A program made the translations under genes and the position numbers. The notes beneath the pieces were generated by a model that saw only the letters and a list, made by a program, of their open reading frames with translations, was not told where the DNA came from and did no database searches. Shown one piece after another: positions 57,685 to 64,000 of a stretch of DNA of 64,000 nt (the first letter of the stretch is position 1; the number at the start of each line of letters is the position of its first letter). The DNA is from an uncultured Thermoactinomyces sp. (GTDB taxonomy: Bacteria > Bacillota > Bacilli > Thermoactinomycetales > Thermoactinomycetaceae), in contig CBEULT010000007.1 in the NCBI GenBank assembly GCA_965544045.1, positions 1 through 64,000 of the forward strand, in the 5' to 3' direction.

Positions 57685-57969
57685 ACAGGACCAATTGGAT
57701 GAACTCCCAGCATGGGGGTTTTTTATTTATCCTGTTCCAACCGTTGGCAAGAACCCGACATACAAGACCCGGCTTTCGACATTATGGTGAAAGCCTTGGT
57801 CACAGTAATATTTTAGCGAAAGGGCGAATGTTCTTGATGCCATTTTCAGTTAACCGGCAGATGGAGTTAAATCTCGATCTGCTGAATGAAAGTCTGCTTT
57901 ATAAATTTTGATGGGCAAATTTGACTATGCTAAGATTAATTATCAGGAAACATTTTGGAGAGTGAAAAG

Positions 57970-59346
57970 ATGGAGACAGATACAATCGCAGCGATCTCAA
58001 CACCAGTTGGTGAAGGTGGCATTTCGGTAATTCGGGTAAGCGGTCCGGATGCAATTCCGGTTGCTGACCGGATCTACCGAGGGAAAAATCTGTTAAAGGA
58101 TGTTCCCACACATACGGTTCATTATGGGCGTATTGTTGACCCGTCTTCAAATGAACAGGTTGATGAGGTATTGGTTACTGTCATGCGAAAGCCGCGCACG
58201 TTCACCAGAGAGGATGTGGTGGAAATCAGTTGTCATGGGGGAATCATTCCCGTCCAAAAAACGTTGGAACTTCTCCTTGCTCATGGAGCCCGCCTGGCGG
58301 AACCGGGAGAATTTACAAAGAGGGCTTTTCTGAATGGACGGATTGATCTGTCGCAGGCAGAAGCGGTCATGGATCTGATTCGGGCCAAAACAGACAGCGC
58401 TGCAAAGGTGGCCCTTTCCCAGCATGAAGGGAGACTGTCCCGTTTAATCCAACAGTTGCGGAATGATATTCTGGAGGTCCTTGCCCATTTGGCCGTTAAC
58501 GTTGATTATCCGGAGTATGATGCTGAACAGTTAACGGCGCAACTTTTGCGTGAACGATCCGAACATATTGCCCGCGAACTGGGGCAGTTACTGGAAACGG
58601 CCCGACAGGGCAAAATTTATCGTGAAGGCATCAAAACCGTGATTGTCGGAAGGCCCAATGTTGGCAAATCATCACTGATGAACGCTTTGACGCACGAAAA
58701 CAAGGCTATTGTAACAGAGATTCCGGGAACAACACGGGATGTGATTGAAGAATATGTGAATGTACGGGGAATTCCGCTTCATCTTTTGGATACGGCCGGC
58801 ATTCGCGAAACGGAAGACATTATTGAGCGTATTGGTGTAGAGCGGTCTCATCAGGCACTGGCCCAGGCTGATCTGGTCCTGTTATTGCTTAATTATGCCG
58901 AACCGCTTACTGATGCGGATCGCAATTTACTGTCTCTGGTTCTAAAGCACACATCGATCGTTATTGTCAATAAAACAGATTTGCCCCGCCGGATCGATCT
59001 GGAAGAGGTACACAACCTGATTGGCGAAATACCCCTGATAACAACTTCATTAAAAGAGGAAAAGGGCATCGGTCATCTGGAAGAAGCCATATCCCGCCTG
59101 TTTCAGTTGGGAAAAGTCGAGTTGTCGGATGGAACTTATGTCAGCAATGTTCGCCATATCCATTTGTTAAGAAAGGCGCTGGAAAGTGTCAGAGAAGTAA
59201 TCCGGGGAATTGATATGGGTGTGCCTCTGGATATGGTGGAGATTGATCTGAAAAATGCCTGGGAATCCCTTGGGGAAGTAATTGGTGAAGCTGTTTCAGA
59301 AGACTTGATCGACCACATTTTTTCACAATTTTGTCTGGGGAAATAA
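57970..59346 (+). CDS. mnmE: tRNA modification GTPase MnmE
   Basis: G domain [11 protein letters not shown]-terminal CxGK. GGAGAGTG RBS. Confidence 0.9.
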
Positions 59347-59361
59347 TGAGAGGTGAAATGG

Positions 59362-61266
59362 ATGGAATATACGGCCGCAAAAGTAGACGTAATTGTTATT
59401 GGGGCAGGACATGCCGGATGTGAAGCTGCACTGTCAGCGGCACGGATGGGATGTTCCACGTTGCTGCTTACCTTGAGCCTGGATACTATTGCCTATATGC
59501 CTTGCAATCCTTCCATTGGAGGGCCGGCTAAAGGGCATGTTGTTCGCGAAATTGATGCCCTTGGTGGAGAGATAGGAAGAAATATAGACAAAACCCATAT
59601 CCAGATGAGAATGCTGAATACTGGCAAAGGACCAGCTGTTTATGCGTTGAGAGCGCAGGCGGACAAGGTTTCTTATCAGCAGGAAATGAAAAAAACATTG
59701 GAAACCACTCCAAATCTGGTTTTGCAACAGGCGATGGTCAAAAAACTGATTGTTGAAGACGGTGTTTGCAAGGGGGTTATTACCCGGACAGGAGCCAGGT
59801 ATTATTCTAAAACAGTTGTTGTGACGACAGGGACGTATTTGCGCGGAAAAATTATTATCGGGGATCTTGCCTACGAGAGCGGGCCCAACAACCAACAGCC
59901 ATCGGTTGATCTGGCTCATCATTTGATGGAACTTGGCTTTGAGATGGTCCGCTTTAAGACAGGTACCCCTCCGCGAATCAACAAGAATTCCATAGATACG
60001 GGTAAAATGACCATTCAGCCGGGAGACGACGAACCCCGAGCTTTTTCATTTGAAACTACCGAGTACAAAACGGATCAACTGCCTTGCTGGTTAACCTATA
60101 CCAATGCAAAAACCCACAGCTATATTCGGGATAATTTGCATCGTGCACCGCTTTATTCCGGCGCAATTGAAGGCACGGGCCCGCGATATTGCCCGTCAAT
60201 TGAAGACAAGATTGTCCGTTTTGCAGACAAAGGGCGGCATCAGATTTTTATTGAGCCCGAGGGACGGGATACGATGGAAATGTATGTCCAGGGGTTGTCT
60301 ACAAGTTTGCCGGAAGATGTCCAGTTGGAAATGCTGCAAACGGTGGAAGGGCTGGAAAATGCGGAGATGCTTCGGACAGGTTACGCTATCGAATATGATG
60401 CCATTGTCCCAACCCAACTGTGGCCTTCGCTTGAAACCAAGCTGGTAAAAAATCTGTTTACTGCCGGGCAACTGAACGGAACTTCGGGCTATGAGGAAGC
60501 AGCAGCCCAGGGAATCATGGCCGGAATTAACGCGGTACGCAAGGTACAGGGAAAGGAACCGGTTATTCTGGATCGTTCCAAAGCATATATCGGTGTTCTG
60601 ATTGATGACTTGGTGACTAAAGGAACAAATGAACCATATCGATTGCTTACATCCCGTGCGGAATACCGGTTGCTGCTCAGGCATGATAATGCTGATTTGC
60701 GTTTAACAGAGATAGGCTATGAGATTGGGTTGATTTCGGAAGAACGTTATCGGCGTTTTGCCCGAAAAAAAGAATTGATTGAAGAAGAAATAAAGCGCCT
60801 GCATGCCACAAAAATCAGGCCCAAACCGGAAGTACAGGCTCTTTTAAGAGAAATGGGAACATCGGAGATCAACAATGCCGTGGAACTGGCCAACCTGATC
60901 AAACGTCCGGAGCTGGGATATAAAGAGATCGCCAGTATGTCTCCGCCCCCGGAACCGCTTCCTCCCGATGTGGCCGAACAGGTAGAGATTCAGATGAAAT
61001 ATGAAGGTTATATCAAAAAAGCTCTTCAACAGGTTGAAAAATTGCAGCGCATGGAAAAGAAACGCATCCCGGATTGGATCGATTATGATAAAATTGCGGG
61101 CATTTCTTCCGAAGCCCGGGAAAAACTGAAAAAAGTAGAACCCATTTCACTTGCACAAGCATCCCGGATTTCTGGCGTCAATCCAGCCGATATATCCATT
61201 TTGATGGTTCATATTGAACAAGGCGGCATAGCCTATAAGATTGCCAATGAAAATGAGATGAGTTAA
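59362..61266 (+). CDS. mnmG: tRNA uridine 5-carboxymethylaminomethyl modification enzyme MnmG
   Basis: FAD site [11 protein letters not shown]. 630+ aa. Confidence 0.9.
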
Positions 61267-61325: not shown

Positions 61326-62042
61326 ATGTGGGGGAGTTGGTTGCAAAAGGAAGCGGCCAGGGCGGGAATCTGTTTATCGGAAGAACAGCTTACCTTATTT
61401 GCCAGGTATTACAGGATTCTGACGGAAAAAAACAAAGTAATGAACTTGACTGCGATTACGGAAGAAAAGGAGGTATATATAAAACATTTCTATGATTCAT
61501 TAACGCTTGCCCGTGTTGTTGATCTTCACGCAACAGATTCCTGGATCGATGTGGGAACCGGGGCAGGATTCCCGGGCATTGCTGTGAAAATAGCATTTCC
61601 CCATTTGCGGCTGGTATTGTTGGATTCGTTAAAAAAAAGGGTCAACTTTTTGGAAGAAGTTGTTCGGGAACTTGGGTTGACACAGGTGGAATGTATACAC
61701 GGTCGGGCGGAAGACGTGGGAAGACACCAGAAGTATCGCCAGACTTTTGACTTGGCGACAGCCCGTGCGGTGGCCAGGTTAAATGTTCTGGCTGAATATT
61801 GTCTCCCTTTTGTCAAGGTTGGCGGAATTTTTGTCGCCATGAAAGGAAACGATGTATCTGAAGAAATGGAAGAAGCACGTCAGGCATTGAATATTCTTGG
61901 CCAAACAACCCTTGAAGTAACCTCGTTTGAGTTGCCGGAAAACAGGGGGGGCCGCAATCTTTTTCTGATGAAAAAGCGGAATCAGACTCCCAAAACTTAT
62001 CCCCGGAAAGCTGGAATCCCGGCTAAACAACCGCTATCCTGA
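61326..62042 (+). CDS. rsmG: 16S rRNA m7G527 methyltransferase RsmG
   Basis: …NLTAITEEKEVYIKHFYDSL…DVGTGAGFPG… SAM motif. Confidence 0.9.
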   Translation: MWGSWLQKEAARAGICLSEEQLTLFARYYRILTEKNKVMNLTAITEEKEVYIKHFYDSLTLARVVDLHATDSWIDVGTGAGFPGIAVKIAFPHLRLVLLDSLKKRVNFLEEVVRELGLTQVECIHGRAEDVGRHQKYRQTFDLATARAVARLNVLAEYCLPFVKVGGIFVAMKGNDVSEEMEEARQALNILGQTTLEVTSFELPENRGGRNLFLMKKRNQTPKTYPRKAGIPAKQPLS

Positions 62043-62060
62043 AAAGGAAGCAAATACAAA

Positions 62061-62106
62061 AAAGAAGCCGAACAGCTCTTTGTCCTGAGAGATTCGGCTT
62101 CTTTTG
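62061..62106. terminator. Bidirectional intrinsic terminator between convergent rsmG and the 477-aa gene (AAGAAGCCGAA…TTCGGCTTCTT flanked by A6/T4)
   Basis: Read directly. Confidence 0.6.
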
Positions 62107-63540
62107 TTAACCTAGATTATTGATCAAATTGTGCAATCCGCGCAAAGCAATTTTCCTCTTTTCAATTTTGTCTATTTCCTGGCGCTTTCGGTTGCTTTGG
62201 GAGTAAGGGGTCATGATTTCTTCCCACGAACTATAATCGCCGTAAGCATCTTCCAACTCGATTTCATCCCGCTTCAAACCGGTTTCCAAGCCGTCATTTT
62301 CTGTTTTTTTTAGTAGGGATTCGTTTTTTTTAGTGTTATTTGGTTCAGGACTGAACGGCTGCATACCGGGATGTCCACCTGGAAACAAAGAGTATTGGTT
62401 ATTCTCGGAGGAAGGTTCCTGGAACAGGGTATAATCTGGCATTTGTTGATTTTTTTCCTTGATCTCACGAGTTACCTTTTCAACAAGTGATTCACGCCTT
62501 TGCTTGAAACGGTTTTTTTTGGATGACCGTGCACGTCGGCGTGGAGAAAAAGGTTCCAGAGGGATCAGTTCATTTTGCTGATCTTTTTCGGGCTGCTGAT
62601 CGTATAGTGAATGGTATGAATAATTCTGCAAGTCAGCTTCCGGCTCAGGATATTCCTGTTTGGACCCGAAATCGTTTGGATAAAAGTCCGGAAAGGATTG
62701 TAACAAGTCATTGTTGGATGGATTATCGGTCTTTGAAGAAGAAAAACCGGTTTTATGACTGCCAGATGATTCATCCGGTTTGGAATCGACTACTTGCAAC
62801 CGTTGTTTTCCTGCAAGTTTTTTACGCAATTTGCGCTCCCGTTCCCGATACACCGGCTCCTGTTTTGTTTCTTTTTCCTCTTCATCGGGGAAAATCTTAT
62901 TTCCCGAGAAAGTTGAATTCCAATCTTTTTCCGGGTTAAATCCTGGTCCTTCTTCGTCTTCCAAATGGACTCGTTCCAACTGGTAAATGGGGTACTCATC
63001 GTTTGGTTCTTCTTGATCCTGGAAAGTAAGCTTTTGCTTGCGGCGCAGCGATTTTTTCCGAAAAGGGCTGCGCTCCCCAAAGAATGAAAATGGGGGTTGG
63101 GCGTATTCCACTTGTTGCGCTTCGATAATTTCCAGGTTGTCTTCATCCGAACCAGGTTGTTCATAAGACGATTCTTTATACAAGGAACCCATATCAAAAG
63201 AAGCTTCTTTCTGTTCGTGCGGCTGTTCCATTCTTCCCGGGTGTGTTTTTACTTGCAGCGTATATGTGTCTGTTTCCAGGGTTTCTGTATGTAATGTCTG
63301 TTTGTTTAGAATAATGTCCCCATCTTCTTGTTTAATGATATGCGTTTCCGTTTGCGAGGAGGGATCGCCTGCAGCGGACTGCCGGACGGCATGTTGACTG
63401 ATCAATGTTGCGATCATTTCCGGTTCTAGCTCGATGTAAAATGCTTTTTTCCCTTTCTCTCTGAGTGCTTCCACGGTTGCTTTCCCTGAGTTGCCCGTTC
63501 CGATGAGAATACAATCGAATTGGGATTCAAATTCTAACAT
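62107..63540 (-). CDS. 477-aa acidic, low-complexity protein whose first ~55 residues resemble the FtsZ N-terminus (MLEFE…ILIGTGNSGKATVEAL…); no tubulin signature
   Basis: Strong RBS AAGGAGGGAG 5 nt before the ATG. The rest is E/K/Q/P/S/D-rich with no GGGTGSG motif. Resemblance was judged by eye against the Bacillus FtsZ N-terminus. Confidence 0.5.
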   Translation of the reverse strand: MLEFESQFDCILIGTGNSGKATVEALREKGKKAFYIELEPEMIATLISQHAVRQSAAGDPSSQTETHIIKQEDGDIILNKQTLHTETLETDTYTLQVKTHPGRMEQPHEQKEASFDMGSLYKESSYEQPGSDEDNLEIIEAQQVEYAQPPFSFFGERSPFRKKSLRRKQKLTFQDQEEPNDEYPIYQLERVHLEDEEGPGFNPEKDWNSTFSGNKIFPDEEEKETKQEPVYRERERKLRKKLAGKQRLQVVDSKPDESSGSHKTGFSSSKTDNPSNNDLLQSFPDFYPNDFGSKQEYPEPEADLQNYSYHSLYDQQPEKDQQNELIPLEPFSPRRRARSSKKNRFKQRRESLVEKVTREIKEKNQQMPDYTLFQEPSSENNQYSLFPGGHPGMQPFSPEPNNTKKNESLLKKTENDGLETGLKRDEIELEDAYGDYSSWEEIMTPYSQSNRKRQEIDKIEKRKIALRGLHNLINNLG

Positions 63541-63722
63541 ATACTCTCCCTCCTTAAGACCTCAGTCACCTGAATCCCTCTCAACATTCTTTCTCAACTA
63601 TTATCTCTTTTTTTCGGGACAATAGCTACCATTATTTTCGGTTATTTGACAGATTTCCACAGGTGGGATAATTCATGAAAAGTTTTCCCCCAAGGAATCC
63701 CTTGGGGGACTTTTGCAAATGC

Positions 63723-64000
63723 TTATTTTTTCATTGATTTGCGTTTTTTATTGTTGTTATCTCCAAACTTGTCCGGAACGTTAAATTCCTGGTGAATGGA
63801 GGCTACCGCTTCAGCTTCTTTTGAAGGAACGGTGCGAGCCTTTGATTGGGCAAATTTGCACAACCCGAAACCATTGGCGAATTGCGCTTCAATTCCATAA
63901 TCTTCGGCAAAGATTAACTTATCGCCAAAGCGTTCGCGGTAATACGGTTTAAACGGAATGGAAGCACCGCCGGTAAGGATGATATAAGTAATGTCATCGC
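63723..64000 (-). CDS. Actin-fold ATPase, ParM/StbA-like C-terminus (partial; 5' end beyond window)
   Basis: C-terminal …IILTGGASIPFKPYYRERFGDKLIFAEDYGIEAQFANGFGLCKF… parallels the ParM C-terminus (LTGGGA…PY.K…F…Y.LVNGM.L). A 9-bp GC hairpin follows the stop. Confidence 0.45.
   Translation of the reverse strand, partial: DDITYIILTGGASIPFKPYYRERFGDKLIFAEDYGIEAQFANGFGLCKFAQSKARTVPSKEAEAVASIHQEFNVPDKFGDNNNKKRKSMKK

What the first reader, a model, noticed from the sequence alone, without database searches (positions are those of the whole stretch)
62107..64000. Actin-like (ParM/StbA-type) ATPase plus acidic disordered protein with FtsZ-like N-terminus sit where noc-soj-spo0J are expected, next to oriC
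From gyrA to rsmG the window follows the conserved Bacillus origin synteny gene for gene. Immediately after rsmG, where the ParA/ParB-type noc-soj-spo0J genes normally continue on the same strand, a bidirectional terminator is followed by a convergent two-gene unit. The upstream gene is cut by the window edge; its C-terminus carries the actin-fold phosphate-2/adenosine motif and aligns to the ParM C-terminal region. The downstream gene encodes a 477-aa E/K/Q/P/S-rich protein with a strong RBS. Its first ~55 residues read like the Bacillus FtsZ N-terminus (MLEFE, then a Gly-rich GTGNSG loop in place of GGGGNN, then matching spacing through the T2-loop region). After that there is no tubulin/GTPase core. 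This looks like a chromosomal type-II (actin-based) partition-like module, or a degenerate ftsA/ftsZ-like duplicate, located at the origin. I do not know of a described system with this composition.
Basis: partly seen in the sequence, partly recalled or inferred. Interest (0 to 1): 0.8.

Follow-up and report, generated by a model that had tools for sequence, protein, structure and literature searches.

The report
Conserved chromosomal actin-like filament gene pair
Next to the replication origin of a Thermoactinomyces genome sits an extremely conserved ParM-type actin-like gene and a previously undescribed partner protein, found together in every mycelium-forming relative examined; it is not FtsZ-like and does not replace the normal chromosome-partition genes.

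Summary
The sequence features are real. A 477-aa ORF lies at 62107-63540(-) with a strong RBS. Upstream is the last 91 codons of an actin-like gene, cut by the window edge. A bidirectional terminator separates the pair from rsmG.

The cut gene is a ParM/Alp-family actin-like ATPase (394 aa in full). It is 76-96% identical across at least 20 Thermoactinomycetaceae genera and Pasteuria. Its next relative anywhere is only 32% identical.

The FtsZ reading fails. The partner's first ~100 residues are homologous to the N-terminus of MnmG/GidA, encoded two genes away (hhalign 96.7%, E 4e-10). The MLEFE start is confined to one genus.

The partner consists of:
- the MnmG-derived N-domain;
- a fast-evolving acidic disordered linker with three basic islands;
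- a near-invariant C-terminal helix ending ...EKRKIALRGLHNLINNLG.

noc-soj-spo0J are not replaced. In all 35 related genomes the pair is inserted between rsmG and noc. There is no RHH adaptor and no iteron centromere.

Best reading: a domesticated ParM-like filament system with a non-canonical adaptor tethered by its C-terminal peptide. It is probably vegetatively expressed, and it parallels cyanobacterial CorMR. Its cellular role is inferred, not shown. I rate it a new variant of a known kind.

The parts
63723..64000 (-). 3' end of the actin-like (ParM/Alp family) gene: last 91 codons (63726-63998) plus stop codon (63723-63725). The full protein is 394 aa (P0077), and the rest lies beyond the window edge.
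   Evidence: Translation is identical to the C-terminus of P0077. The T. mirandus orthologue (96% identical to P0077) hits Pfam ALP_N at E 7e-10 and MreB-like_C at E 8e-8, both above their cut-offs. P0077 itself hits phrog_691 at E 1e-36.
63726..63842 (-). C-terminal extension of the actin-like protein (aa 356-394), beyond the actin fold. It has a conserved I-x-Q-E-F-x-V-P-D motif and a Lys-rich end (net charge +5).
   Evidence: I371, F375 and P378 are invariant or near-invariant in alignment A4. Function unknown.
63687..63708 (-). GC-clamped hairpin (CCCCCAAGG-loop-CCTTGGGGG) just after the actin-like gene's stop. It has no clean U-run and is a likely intercistronic attenuator or RNA-stability element.
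   Evidence: Present 11-49 nt after the stop in 31 of 35 related loci, with compensatory inner-stem changes. The whole 185-nt spacer is 96% identical among Thermoactinomyces species, against 80-84% for the partner protein in the same species, and it folds with z -3.55. No Rfam family matches.
63546..63555 (-). Ribosome-binding site AAGGAGGGAG, 5 nt upstream of the partner gene's ATG.
   Evidence: Read directly from the sequence. AAAGGAGGG is conserved before the partner start in most of the related loci listed.
62107..63540 (-). Partner gene: 477 aa, acidic (pI 5.1), with no Pfam or NCBIfam family.
   Evidence: ORF. There are 76 homologues, and every one that carries an organism name is from Thermoactinomycetaceae. 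dN/dS against T. mirandus is 0.155 overall.
63238..63540 (-). Partner N-terminal domain (aa 1-101): beta-alpha-beta followed by a four-strand meander. It is homologous to residues 2-104 of MnmG/GidA.
   Evidence: AF2 pLDDT is above 90 over about residues 10-100. hhalign against an MnmG alignment gives 96.7% probability, E 3.9e-10, over 98 colinear columns. The family profile's best PDB hits are FAD-oxidoreductase and MnmG N-termini at E 0.002-0.006. The GxGxxG motif is degenerate in Shimazuella, Croceifilum and Marininema. dN/dS 0.087.
62284..63237 (-). Partner disordered linker (aa 102-419), net charge -13. It contains three conserved basic islands: aa 154-168 FGERSPFRKKSLRRK, aa 229-245 PVYRERERKLRKK..., and aa 329-349 EPFSPRRRARSSKKNRFKQRR.
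   Evidence: AF2 pLDDT is below 50 for most of it. Total partner length ranges from 353 to 871 aa across genera because of this region. The basic islands are conserved in alignments A1 and A3 and located. dN/dS 0.196.
62110..62283 (-). Partner C-terminal module (aa 420-477): LKRDxIE(F/L)EDAYG...SWEE...RKRQE.DKIEKRKIALRGLHNLINNLG-COOH. The last 18 residues (62110-62163) form a near-invariant amphipathic helix and are the proposed docking peptide for the actin-like protein.
   Evidence: 17-20 invariant columns lie here, in a family with 18-22% mean column identity. The tail is present in 34 of 34 complete loci and, in diverged form, in Pasteuria (...RRAIAERELSNLINSLG). AF2 predicts a helix at 450-476 with pLDDT 75-89. 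dN/dS 0.025. Binding is inferred, not shown.
62060..62105 (.). Bidirectional intrinsic terminator shared by rsmG (+) and the partner gene (-).
   Evidence: A 13-bp outer stem (plus a 5-bp inner stem) flanked by an A-run and a U-run; dG -23.6 kcal/mol, z -3.87, 0 of 200 shuffles as stable.

Best explanation
This is a vertically inherited, chromosomally fixed two-gene actin-like filament module. It is specific to the mycelial endospore-formers, Thermoactinomycetaceae and Pasteuria.

Gene 1 is a ParM/Alp-superfamily ATPase that keeps all the nucleotide-binding motifs. It most likely polymerises into nucleotide-dependent filaments.

Gene 2 is a non-canonical adaptor. Its invariant C-terminal amphipathic helix most likely docks onto the actin-like protein, as the C-terminal peptides of ParR and CorR dock onto ParM and CorM. 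A long acidic disordered tether then connects the filament to whatever the MnmG-derived N-domain and the three basic islands bind.

The module probably descends from a phage or plasmid ParM cassette inserted between rsmG and noc. The original small DNA-binding adaptor was then replaced by a protein whose N-domain arose from a partial duplication of the neighbouring mnmG.

It is transcribed from a near-consensus sigma-A promoter. I therefore think it acts during vegetative hyphal growth as a cytoskeletal or positioning system, analogous to CorMR of multicellular cyanobacteria, rather than as a classical ParMRC partition system.

Shown: family membership, architecture, conservation, synteny, lack of an RHH fold and iterons, and MnmG homology.

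Inferred: polymerisation, peptide docking, origin from a mobile element, vegetative expression, and the cellular role.
For: Family membership of gene 1:
- ALP_N and MreB-like_C score above their Pfam cut-offs.
- It matches phrog_691 'partition protein' at E 1e-36 over its full length.
- A profile of the clade plus its nearest relatives hits pCBH ParM at 4.5e-46, pSK41 ParM at 6e-34, Dh-cParM1 at 3e-32 and CorM at 3e-22.
- Phosphate-1 (D10, G12), phosphate-2 (D199, G201) and adenosine (G313, G314) residues are invariant.

Conservation of gene 1:
- It is 76-96% identical across all genera, including Pasteuria.
- In 1.84 billion representative proteins, the only hit above 32% identity is P0083 (89%); the next best is 32% (E 6e-24).
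- It is as conserved as Soj or more so. In Seinonella the figures are ALP 85%, Soj 76%, Noc 61%, RsmG 54%.
- dN/dS of the fragment in the window is 0.041.

The pair and its synteny:
- The partner, with its C-terminal tail, lies immediately downstream in 34 of 34 complete loci.
- rsmG is convergent downstream in 33 of 33 loci, and noc is divergent upstream in 35 of 35.
- The same arrangement holds in T. mirandus, Desmospora and Pasteuria.

Relation to mobile elements:
- The nearest outgroup ALPs (25-32% identical) sit beside phage or recombinase genes, each with a small 138-165 aa downstream gene.
- No plasmid or phage record holds a relative above 27% identity.

Expression: the promoter TTGACC-N18-TGnTAGAAT lies 32-62 nt upstream of the ATG in 30 of 35 loci.

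Precedents: chromosomal ParMs have been described (PMC12270681), and CorMR shows a chromosomal ParMR repurposed as a cytoskeleton, with an adaptor C-terminal peptide binding a conserved pocket (bioRxiv 10.1101/2025.06.27.661541).
Against: - No direct evidence exists for polymerisation, for peptide-ALP binding, or for any cellular role.
- The complex could not be modelled.
- The C-terminal amphipathic helix could instead be a dimerisation or membrane-binding element.
- Adjacency to oriC, to parS and to noc-soj-spo0J could point to a chromosome-related role instead.
- I did not check whether these genomes also have MreB, so nothing can be said about redundancy with the usual rod-shape cytoskeleton.
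Confidence: 0.6

Rival explanations
1. It is an origin-segregation system: a chromosomal type-II partition machine. The filament pushes or positions oriC regions in multinucleoid hyphae or into the spore compartment. The partner links the filament to origin-proximal DNA or to the ParB(Spo0J)/Noc-parS nucleoprotein complex, through its basic islands or its N-domain.
For: - The fixed position is roughly 7-9 kb from dnaA by colinearity and directly beside noc-soj-spo0J.
- A perfect parS lies in the noc/ALP divergent spacer in 31 of 35 loci.
- The partner has three conserved Arg/Lys islands.
- The ALP has a Lys-rich tail.
- The closest solved and annotated relatives are partition ParMs.
Against: - There is no RHH or other recognised DNA-binding domain and no iteron array.
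- parS spacing is fixed relative to the noc start (about 105-120 bp in at least 10 loci, including L031 where the ALP is 1.6 kb away), not relative to the ALP.
- parS is absent from the Pasteuria loci.
- The canonical ParABS genes are retained intact, so there is no obvious need for a second system.
Confidence: 0.25
2. It is a remnant of an integrated plasmid or prophage partition cassette. It persists as selfish or neutral DNA with no host function.
For: The nearest distant relatives are in phage- or MGE-like contexts. The ALP matches a phage 'partition protein' family.
Against: - The locus is identical in at least 20 genera and in the reduced genome of Pasteuria.
- Identity is 76-96% and dN/dS is 0.03-0.2 in all parts.
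- The promoter is conserved.
- The tables of called genes available for three relatives show no integrase, repeats or other MGE genes next to the pair.
- No close relative exists in the plasmid or phage collections.
Confidence: 0.03
3. It is a degenerate FtsA/FtsZ-like duplicate. On this view the partner is a decayed FtsZ and the actin-like gene an FtsA paralogue.
For: There is only an architectural analogy: a globular N-domain, a disordered linker and a conserved C-terminal peptide, as in FtsZ, whose peptide binds the actin-like FtsA (from general knowledge). The protein starts MLEFE in this genus.
Against: - No FtsZ or tubulin hit by sequence or by fold.
- The N-domain aligns with MnmG.
- MLEFE is genus-specific.
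- The ALP hits ALP_N and ParM families, and FtsA was not among the families reported at E<=1.
Confidence: 0.01
4. The two genes are merely neighbours. The partner has a function unrelated to the actin-like protein, for example an MnmG- or tRNA-modification-related role or a spore-associated role.
For: - The N-domain derives from MnmG, and the gene lies beside the mnmE-mnmG-rsmG operon.
- A hairpin and, in some genera, a possible separate promoter lie between the two genes.
- The spacer between the genes ranges from 43 to 1602 bp.
Against: - The two genes strictly co-occur, in the same order and on the same strand, in all 34 complete loci and in Pasteuria.
- Pasteuria keeps the C-terminal tail while losing the MnmG-like N-domain, which argues that the tail is the essential part.
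- The only invariant part of the partner matches the extreme conservation of the ALP.
Confidence: 0.1

Closest known systems
CorMR of multicellular cyanobacteria (Springstein et al., bioRxiv 10.1101/2025.06.27.661541)
   Same: - A chromosomal, vertically inherited ParM-type filament protein plus a downstream adaptor.
- The adaptor's C-terminal peptide binds a pocket that is conserved in the chromosomal forms.
- The distribution tracks a filamentous, multicellular lineage.
- The function has moved away from plasmid segregation.
   Different: - CorR is still an RHH ParR derivative with an N-terminal amphipathic membrane helix. The partner here has no RHH; it has an MnmG-derived alpha/beta domain and a roughly 320-aa acidic disordered linker.
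- CorM has an N-terminal disordered region, whereas this ALP has a C-terminal extension.
- The two are not orthologous. The profile hits CorM at 3e-22, more weakly than pCBH ParM at 4.5e-46.
- The phylum is different (Bacillota).
Chromosome-encoded ParMs (cParMs), e.g. Dh-cParM1 of Desulfitobacterium (Ali et al., J Biol Chem 2025, PMC12270681; PDB 8x1i)
   Same: A Firmicute chromosomal ParM that is highly conserved within a lineage and syntenic, suggesting a host function. Dh-cParM1 is a significant sequence relative (3e-32 with the profile).
   Different: - cParMs are conserved at genus level and are followed by canonical RHH cParRs.
- Here conservation spans a whole family plus Pasteuria, the locus is beside oriC, and the partner is non-canonical.
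- Thermoactinomycetaceae are not mentioned in that paper.
Plasmid type-II partition systems ParMRC, Alp7AR and AlfAB (R1, pSK41, pCBH, pLS20, pLS32)
   Same: - An actin-like NTPase gene followed on the same strand by its adaptor gene.
- The adaptor probably binds through a C-terminal peptide.
- The closest solved structures by sequence are pCBH ParM and pSK41 ParM.
   Different: - Those systems are plasmid-borne, have small (about 100-160 aa) DNA-binding adaptors and an iteron centromere, and diverge rapidly.
- Here there are no iterons and no DNA-binding fold, the location is chromosomal, and sequence conservation is extreme.
MnmG/GidA N-terminal FAD-binding region
   Same: The partner's residues 1-101 align colinearly with MnmG residues 2-104. 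Some family members are even auto-annotated 'Glucose inhibited division protein A' or PF01134.
   Different: - Only about 100 of MnmG's roughly 630 residues are represented.
- GxGxxG is lost in several genera.
- The predicted fold of the isolated fragment does not retrieve MnmG.
- It is therefore very unlikely to bind FAD or modify tRNA.
FtsZ (domain - disordered linker - C-terminal peptide that binds actin-like FtsA) and MamJ/MamK
   Same: The resemblance is purely architectural and functional. FtsZ is a protein with a long disordered, acidic linker that presents a short conserved peptide to an actin-family filament protein. MamJ is an acidic adaptor for the actin-like MamK.
   Different: No sequence or fold homology to FtsZ. 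Homology to MamJ was not tested.

Membership tests
ParM/Alp actin-like ATPase superfamily (Pfam ALP_N PF17989 + MreB-like_C PF21522) | Profile HMM scores above the curated cut-offs | tested here: met
   On the T. mirandus orthologue (96% identical to P0077): ALP_N 39.7 bits against a 26.3 cut-off, and MreB-like_C 33.4 against 27.8. P0077 carries the same two precomputed Pfam domains and matches phrog_691 at E 1e-36. The 91-aa fragment in the window is too short to score alone, but it is identical to the C-terminus of P0077.
ParM/Alp actin-like ATPase superfamily | Actin-fold nucleotide motifs: phosphate-1 (DxG), phosphate-2 (DxGxGT) and adenosine (GG) | tested here: met
   D10, G12, D199, G201, G313 and G314 are invariant in the alignment with distant relatives. 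The sequence reads IGNDQGYYGTK, INDLGFGTSD and ILTGGAS.
ParM/Alp actin-like ATPase superfamily | Nucleotide-dependent polymerisation into filaments | not testable with these tools
   Needs purified protein. The AF2 monomer model was poor (mean pLDDT 48.6), so even the fold was not confirmed structurally.
Type-II partition system (ParMRC) | A small DNA-binding adaptor (RHH ParR, or the Alp7R/AlfB type) encoded next to the NTPase | tested here: not met
   The partner is 353-871 aa and has no Pfam, NCBIfam or PHROG family. AF2 shows an alpha/beta N-domain plus a disordered region, not an RHH fold.
Type-II partition system (ParMRC) | A centromere of repeated adaptor-binding sites (parC iterons) beside the operon | tested here: not met
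   No repeat arrays upstream of the ALP in four related loci. The only conserved DNA motif is a single ParB-type parS, which tracks noc. The window itself stops before this region.
Type-II partition system (ParMRC) | The adaptor's C-terminal peptide binds the filament protein | tested here: inconclusive
   A near-invariant C-terminal helix exists.
Type-II partition system (ParMRC) | Carried on a low-copy plasmid or another mobile replicon | tested here: not met
   The chromosomal locus between rsmG and noc is fixed in 35 of 35 genomes. No plasmid or phage relative exceeds 27% identity.
FtsZ/tubulin | Tubulin-type GTPase domain with the GGGTG[ST]G signature, or at least significant similarity of the N-terminus to FtsZ | tested here: not met
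   No tubulin family in Pfam. No FtsZ among PDB hits at E<=10 with the single sequence, and none among the 60 best of 109 family-profile hits at E<=10. No fold match. The Gly-rich loop is a GxGxxG dinucleotide-type motif, and it is degenerate in several genera.
MnmG/GidA (FAD-dependent tRNA modification enzyme) | Homology to the N-terminal FAD-binding region | tested here: met
   hhalign gives 96.7% probability, E 3.9e-10, aligning partner residues 1-101 with MnmG 2-104. The PDB profile hits MnmG at E 0.0025-0.006 over 44-56 residues.
MnmG/GidA (FAD-dependent tRNA modification enzyme) | A complete FAD domain, insertion domain and C-terminal MnmE-binding domain, with a conserved GxGxxG | tested here: not met
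   Only about 100 residues are homologous and the rest is disordered. GxGxxG is lost in Shimazuella, Croceifilum and Marininema. It is a derived fragment, not an MnmG enzyme.
CorMR-type repurposed chromosomal ParMR | A chromosomal, vertically inherited ParM-like gene plus adaptor, conserved in a multicellular or filamentous lineage | tested here: met
   That the lineage is mycelial is from general knowledge of Thermoactinomycetaceae and Pasteuria, not tested here.
CorMR-type repurposed chromosomal ParMR | An RHH-derived adaptor with an N-terminal amphipathic membrane helix; regulation by MinC | tested here: not met
   The partner's N-terminus is a folded MnmG-like domain with no RHH. MinC involvement was not tested. 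The resemblance is functional, not a matter of membership.
   Only ALP_N, MreB-like_C and Alp7A_like_C appear in Pfam at E<=1. NCBIfam gives PRTRC_D and ParM.

The most novel reading that the evidence does not exclude
The pair is a lineage-defining cytoskeleton of the mycelial endospore-formers (Thermoactinomycetaceae and Pasteuria). On this reading it is a second, independent domestication of a mobile-element ParM into a host filament system, parallel to CorMR in multicellular cyanobacteria. It organises hyphal growth or branching, or positions origins or nucleoids along hyphae. Its adaptor would have been invented de novo by fusing a duplicated fragment of the neighbouring mnmG gene to a disordered tether and an ALP-docking peptide.
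Probability: 0.3. Interest if true: 0.8.

Novelty: new variant of a known kind. Interest (0 to 1): 0.62.

Why it matters
How Firmicutes that grow as branched mycelia organise growth and distribute chromosomes is essentially unstudied.

This actin-like protein is as conserved as Soj/ParA. It is restricted to exactly this lineage, probably expressed during vegetative growth, and paired with a new kind of adaptor. That makes it a concrete, testable candidate for that machinery.

It would also be a second example, in a different phylum, of a plasmid or phage ParM being turned into a host cytoskeleton in a multicellular bacterium. The adaptor's apparent origin from a duplicated piece of a tRNA-modification gene would show how such an adaptor can arise.

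On the practical side, database annotations of the partner as 'Glucose inhibited division protein A' or 'FAD-dependent oxidoreductase', and of the ALP as 'plasmid segregation protein', are misleading.

Tried and rejected
- **Exact-sequence look-up.** I tried to extend the contig by looking up the window's own partner protein. It was not on record, so I used relatives at 80-83% identity instead.
- **ALP monomer model.** The AF2 model built on a 31-sequence alignment (all rows at least 74% identical to the query) was poor (mean pLDDT 48.6). I did not use it and ran no fold search on it.
- **Third homologue search.** Using the 56-aa C-terminal module to look for other proteins carrying the peptide returned only two short fragments, which was uninformative.
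- **Iteron or centromere search** upstream of the ALP in four loci found only chance two-copy repeats.
- **parS as the module's centromere.** I considered this, then downgraded it, because parS spacing is tied to noc and parS is missing in Pasteuria.
- **Rfam scan** of 61900-64000 found nothing meaningful.
- **Literature searches** for Thermoactinomyces with ParM or MreB found nothing relevant.
- **Sugar-kinase/Ppx reading** of the cut gene was rejected by the profile searches.


Full report
**What is in the window**

- The 477-aa ORF lies at 62107..63540 on the minus strand. Its ribosome-binding site, AAGGAGGGAG, sits 5 nt before the ATG.
- Upstream on the same strand, an ORF runs off the window edge. 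Its last 91 codons (63726-63998, stop at 63723-63725) read ...DDITYIILTGGASIPFK...KKRKSMKK.
- rsmG (61326-62042, plus strand) and the 477-aa gene converge on a hairpin at 62060-62105. The hairpin is flanked by an A-run and a U-run (dG -23.6 kcal/mol, z -3.9).
- mnmE (57955-59346) and mnmG (59353-61266) precede rsmG.
- The window is colinear at 84-88% DNA identity with a Thermoactinomyces mirandus locus. That locus continues through jag, yidC, rnpA, rpmH, dnaA and dnaN.
- By this colinearity the pair lies roughly 7-9 kb from dnaA.

The descriptive part of the finding is therefore correct.

**The cut gene**

- The 91 residues are identical to the C-terminus of P0077, a 394-aa protein.
- The T. 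mirandus orthologue (96% identical to P0077) scores above the Pfam cut-offs for ALP_N (39.7 bits against 26.3) and MreB-like_C (33.4 against 27.8).
- P0077 itself matches the phage 'partition protein' family phrog_691 at E 1e-36 over its whole length.
- It scores weakly against NCBIfam ParM and PRTRC_D.
- A profile of the clade plus its nearest relatives hits solved ParMs end to end: pCBH ParM at 4.5e-46, pSK41 ParM at 6e-34, Dh-cParM1 at 3e-32 and CorM at 3e-22. It then hits Ta0583, BtParM, Alp12, Alp7A, AlfA, MamK and R1 ParM.
- The phosphate-1, phosphate-2 and adenosine motifs are invariant.
- No sugar-kinase or Ppx family appears.

**How conserved the actin-like protein is**

- Identity is 76-96% across every Thermoactinomycetaceae genus sampled and in Pasteuria penetrans.
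- An exhaustive HMMER scan covered 1.84 billion representatives of 50%-identity clusters. The only hit above 32% identity was P0083 (89%). The next best hit was 32% identical, at E 6e-24.
- Within the same genome pairs, the protein is as conserved as Soj/ParA or more so, and far more conserved than Noc or RsmG. In Seinonella the figures are 85% (ALP), 76% (Soj), 61% (Noc) and 54% (RsmG).
- dN/dS for the fragment in the window, against T. mirandus, is 0.041. The figure for rsmG is 0.103.
- No plasmid or phage record holds a relative above 27% identity.
- The nearest distant relatives (25-32% identical) lie beside phage-tail or recombinase genes. Each is followed by a small 138-165 aa gene, which is the usual ParM-plus-small-adaptor layout.

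**The 477-aa partner**

It has 76 homologues. Every one that carries an organism name is from Thermoactinomycetaceae, and none has a curated family. Alignment and an AF2 model built on 61 sequences define three parts.

- **Residues 1-101.** This is a confidently folded beta-alpha-beta unit plus a four-strand meander (pLDDT above 90).
- **Residues 102-419.** This region is disordered and acidic (net charge -13). Its length is very variable, giving whole proteins of 353-871 aa. It carries three conserved basic islands...RKKSLRRK, PVYRERExKLRKK and EPFSxRRRxRxxKKxR.
- **Residues 420-477.** This region is almost invariant and ends in the helix IEKRKIALRGLHNLINNLG-COOH.

All parts are under purifying selection. 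dN/dS is 0.087 for the N-domain, 0.196 for the linker and 0.025 for the C-terminal module.

**The FtsZ idea fails**

- No FtsZ appears among PDB sequence matches at E<=10 for the N-terminal 101 residues.
- The family profile gave 109 PDB hits at E<=10. The best 60 were listed, and none is FtsZ.
- There is no tubulin Pfam hit.
- MLEFE is confined to the genus Thermoactinomyces.

**The N-domain is MnmG-derived**

- The profile's best PDB hits are the N-termini of FAD-dependent oxidoreductases. The longest alignments are to MnmG/GidA.
- A profile-profile comparison with MnmG gives 96.7% probability and E 3.9e-10. It aligns partner residues 1-101 with MnmG residues 2-104 colinearly.
- mnmG lies only two genes away. 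I infer that the N-domain arose by partial duplication of its 5' end.
- This is inference. The GxGxxG motif has decayed in Shimazuella, Croceifilum and Marininema, so FAD binding is unlikely.

**Synteny**

A scan of species-representative genomes returned 35 loci. All are Thermoactinomycetaceae, from at least 20 genera, with one locus per genome record returned. A script run over these loci showed the following.

- The partner, with its C-terminal tail, lies immediately downstream of the ALP in 34 of 34 complete loci.
- rsmG is convergent downstream in 33 of 33.
- noc is divergent upstream in 35 of 35, followed by soj and spo0J.

noc-soj-spo0J are therefore displaced by an insertion, not replaced.

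Pasteuria penetrans keeps the ALP next to rsmG. Its downstream protein is shorter (227 aa) and has lost the MnmG-like domain. It still ends ...RRAIAERELSNLINSLG. This suggests the tail is the indispensable part.

**Regulatory DNA, seen in relatives because the window ends too early**

- A near-consensus sigma-A promoter with an extended -10, TTGACC-N18-TGnTAGAAT, lies 32-62 nt upstream of the ALP start codon in 30 of 35 loci.
- I infer strong vegetative expression from this.
- There are no iteron arrays.
- A perfect ParB-type parS lies in the noc/ALP spacer in 31 of 35 loci.
- Its distance is fixed relative to the noc start (about 105-120 bp in many loci), not relative to the ALP. It is also absent in Pasteuria.
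- I therefore treat parS as a feature of the ParB/Noc system, not as the module's centromere.
- A C5/G5-clamped hairpin follows the ALP stop in 31 of 35 loci, with compensatory inner-stem changes. In the window it lies at 63687-63708.

**Mechanism**

Shown:
- The ALP is a ParM-family ATPase with intact catalytic motifs.
- The two genes form an obligate pair.
- The partner presents an invariant C-terminal helix at the end of a long disordered tether.
- There is no RHH fold and no iteron array.

Inferred:
- The ALP forms filaments.
- The partner's terminal helix docks onto it, as the C-terminal peptides of ParR and CorR do on ParM and CorM.
- The N-domain and the basic islands attach to a cellular target. 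This could be the membrane or cell envelope, the nucleoid, or another protein.
- The module therefore acts as a host cytoskeletal or positioning system during hyphal growth.

The closest precedent is CorMR, a chromosomal ParMR repurposed as a cortical cytoskeleton in multicellular cyanobacteria (bioRxiv 10.1101/2025.06.27.661541). Chromosomal ParMs with canonical RHH partners are also known in Desulfitobacterium, Moorella and Bacillus (PMC12270681). Neither paper mentions Thermoactinomycetaceae, and my other literature searches found nothing on this pair.

The main rival is an origin- or chromosome-positioning role. It is suggested by the location beside oriC, parS and noc-soj-spo0J, and by the basic islands. 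I cannot exclude it.

**What I could not do**

- The ALP monomer model was unusable.
- I did not check whether these genomes encode MreB.
- The window itself does not contain the ALP's N-terminal 303 residues, its promoter, parS or noc.

**Verdict**

The finding is real and ordered, but partly misread.

- It is not FtsZ-like.
- It is not a replacement for ParABS.
- It is not a classical ParMRC system.
- It is a lineage-specific, highly conserved chromosomal ParM-like filament gene with a novel adaptor. This makes it a new variant of a known kind (chromosomal or repurposed ParM systems).
- It is of moderate to high interest because it offers a concrete handle on cell organisation in mycelial Firmicutes.

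Noticed in passing
L001:8277-8292, L002:1642-1657, L003:8274-8289, L007:9348-9363; in 31 of 35 loci L009-L043 (positions); beyond the window's right edge: A perfect ParB/Spo0J parS site (TGTTNCACGTGNAACA) lies in the divergent spacer between noc and the actin-like gene. A second lies inside spo0J. The spacer site sits about 105-120 bp from the noc start in many genera. It is absent from the Pasteuria loci, and no parS occurs anywhere in the 64-kb window.
   Followed up: partly
window 63687-63708 (-); 11-49 nt after the ALP stop in 31 of 35 related loci: A conserved C5...G5-clamped RNA hairpin lies between the two genes, with compensatory changes in the inner stem and a variable loop. It is not followed by a clean U-run. 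It may be an attenuator or an RNA-stability or processing element that sets the ALP:partner ratio. No Rfam family matches.
   Followed up: partly
window 63594-63629 (-); equivalent positions in Thermoactinomyces, Laceyella, Hazenella, Seinonella, Shimazuella, Croceifilum and Lihuaxuella loci: A conserved block, CTAGC-N~14-AAAAAGAG(A/G)GATAATAG, lies about 55-70 nt upstream of the partner start. It looks like a promoter with a GATAAT -10 but no sigma-A -35. It is absent in the Kroppenstedtia/Melghirimyces/Marininema group and in Thermoflavimicrobium. The sigma factor was not identified.
   Followed up: no
window 63726-63842 (-) (ALP aa 356-394): The actin-like protein has a roughly 40-aa C-terminal extension beyond the actin fold. 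It carries a conserved I-x-Q-E-F-x-V-P-D motif and usually a Lys-rich end. The Lys-rich end is missing in Polycladomyces and Pasteuria. Its function is unknown; it could be a DNA, membrane or partner contact.
   Followed up: no
L004:8900-12171 (Pasteuria penetrans): In Pasteuria the locus is rearranged. Transposase genes and hypothetical genes separate the ALP from a ParB-like gene. The partner is cut down to 227 aa, lacks the MnmG-like domain, and keeps a diverged C-terminal tail. I did not check whether the 282-bp gap upstream of it holds a decayed N-domain.
   Followed up: partly
partner homologues P0043, P0062 and others (alignment A1): The disordered linker has expanded independently through short tandem peptide repeats. 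Examples are SKPSQ repeats in Risungbinella and EETEEAIME-type repeats in Shimazuella. This gives proteins of up to 871 aa while both termini stay fixed.
   Followed up: no
database annotations of partner homologues (P0019, P0057, P0058, P0065, P0072): Several orthologues are auto-annotated as 'Glucose inhibited division protein A', 'FAD-dependent oxidoreductase' or PF01134. This is because of the roughly 50-100 aa MnmG-like N-terminus. These names are misleading for a protein that is otherwise disordered.
   Followed up: yes
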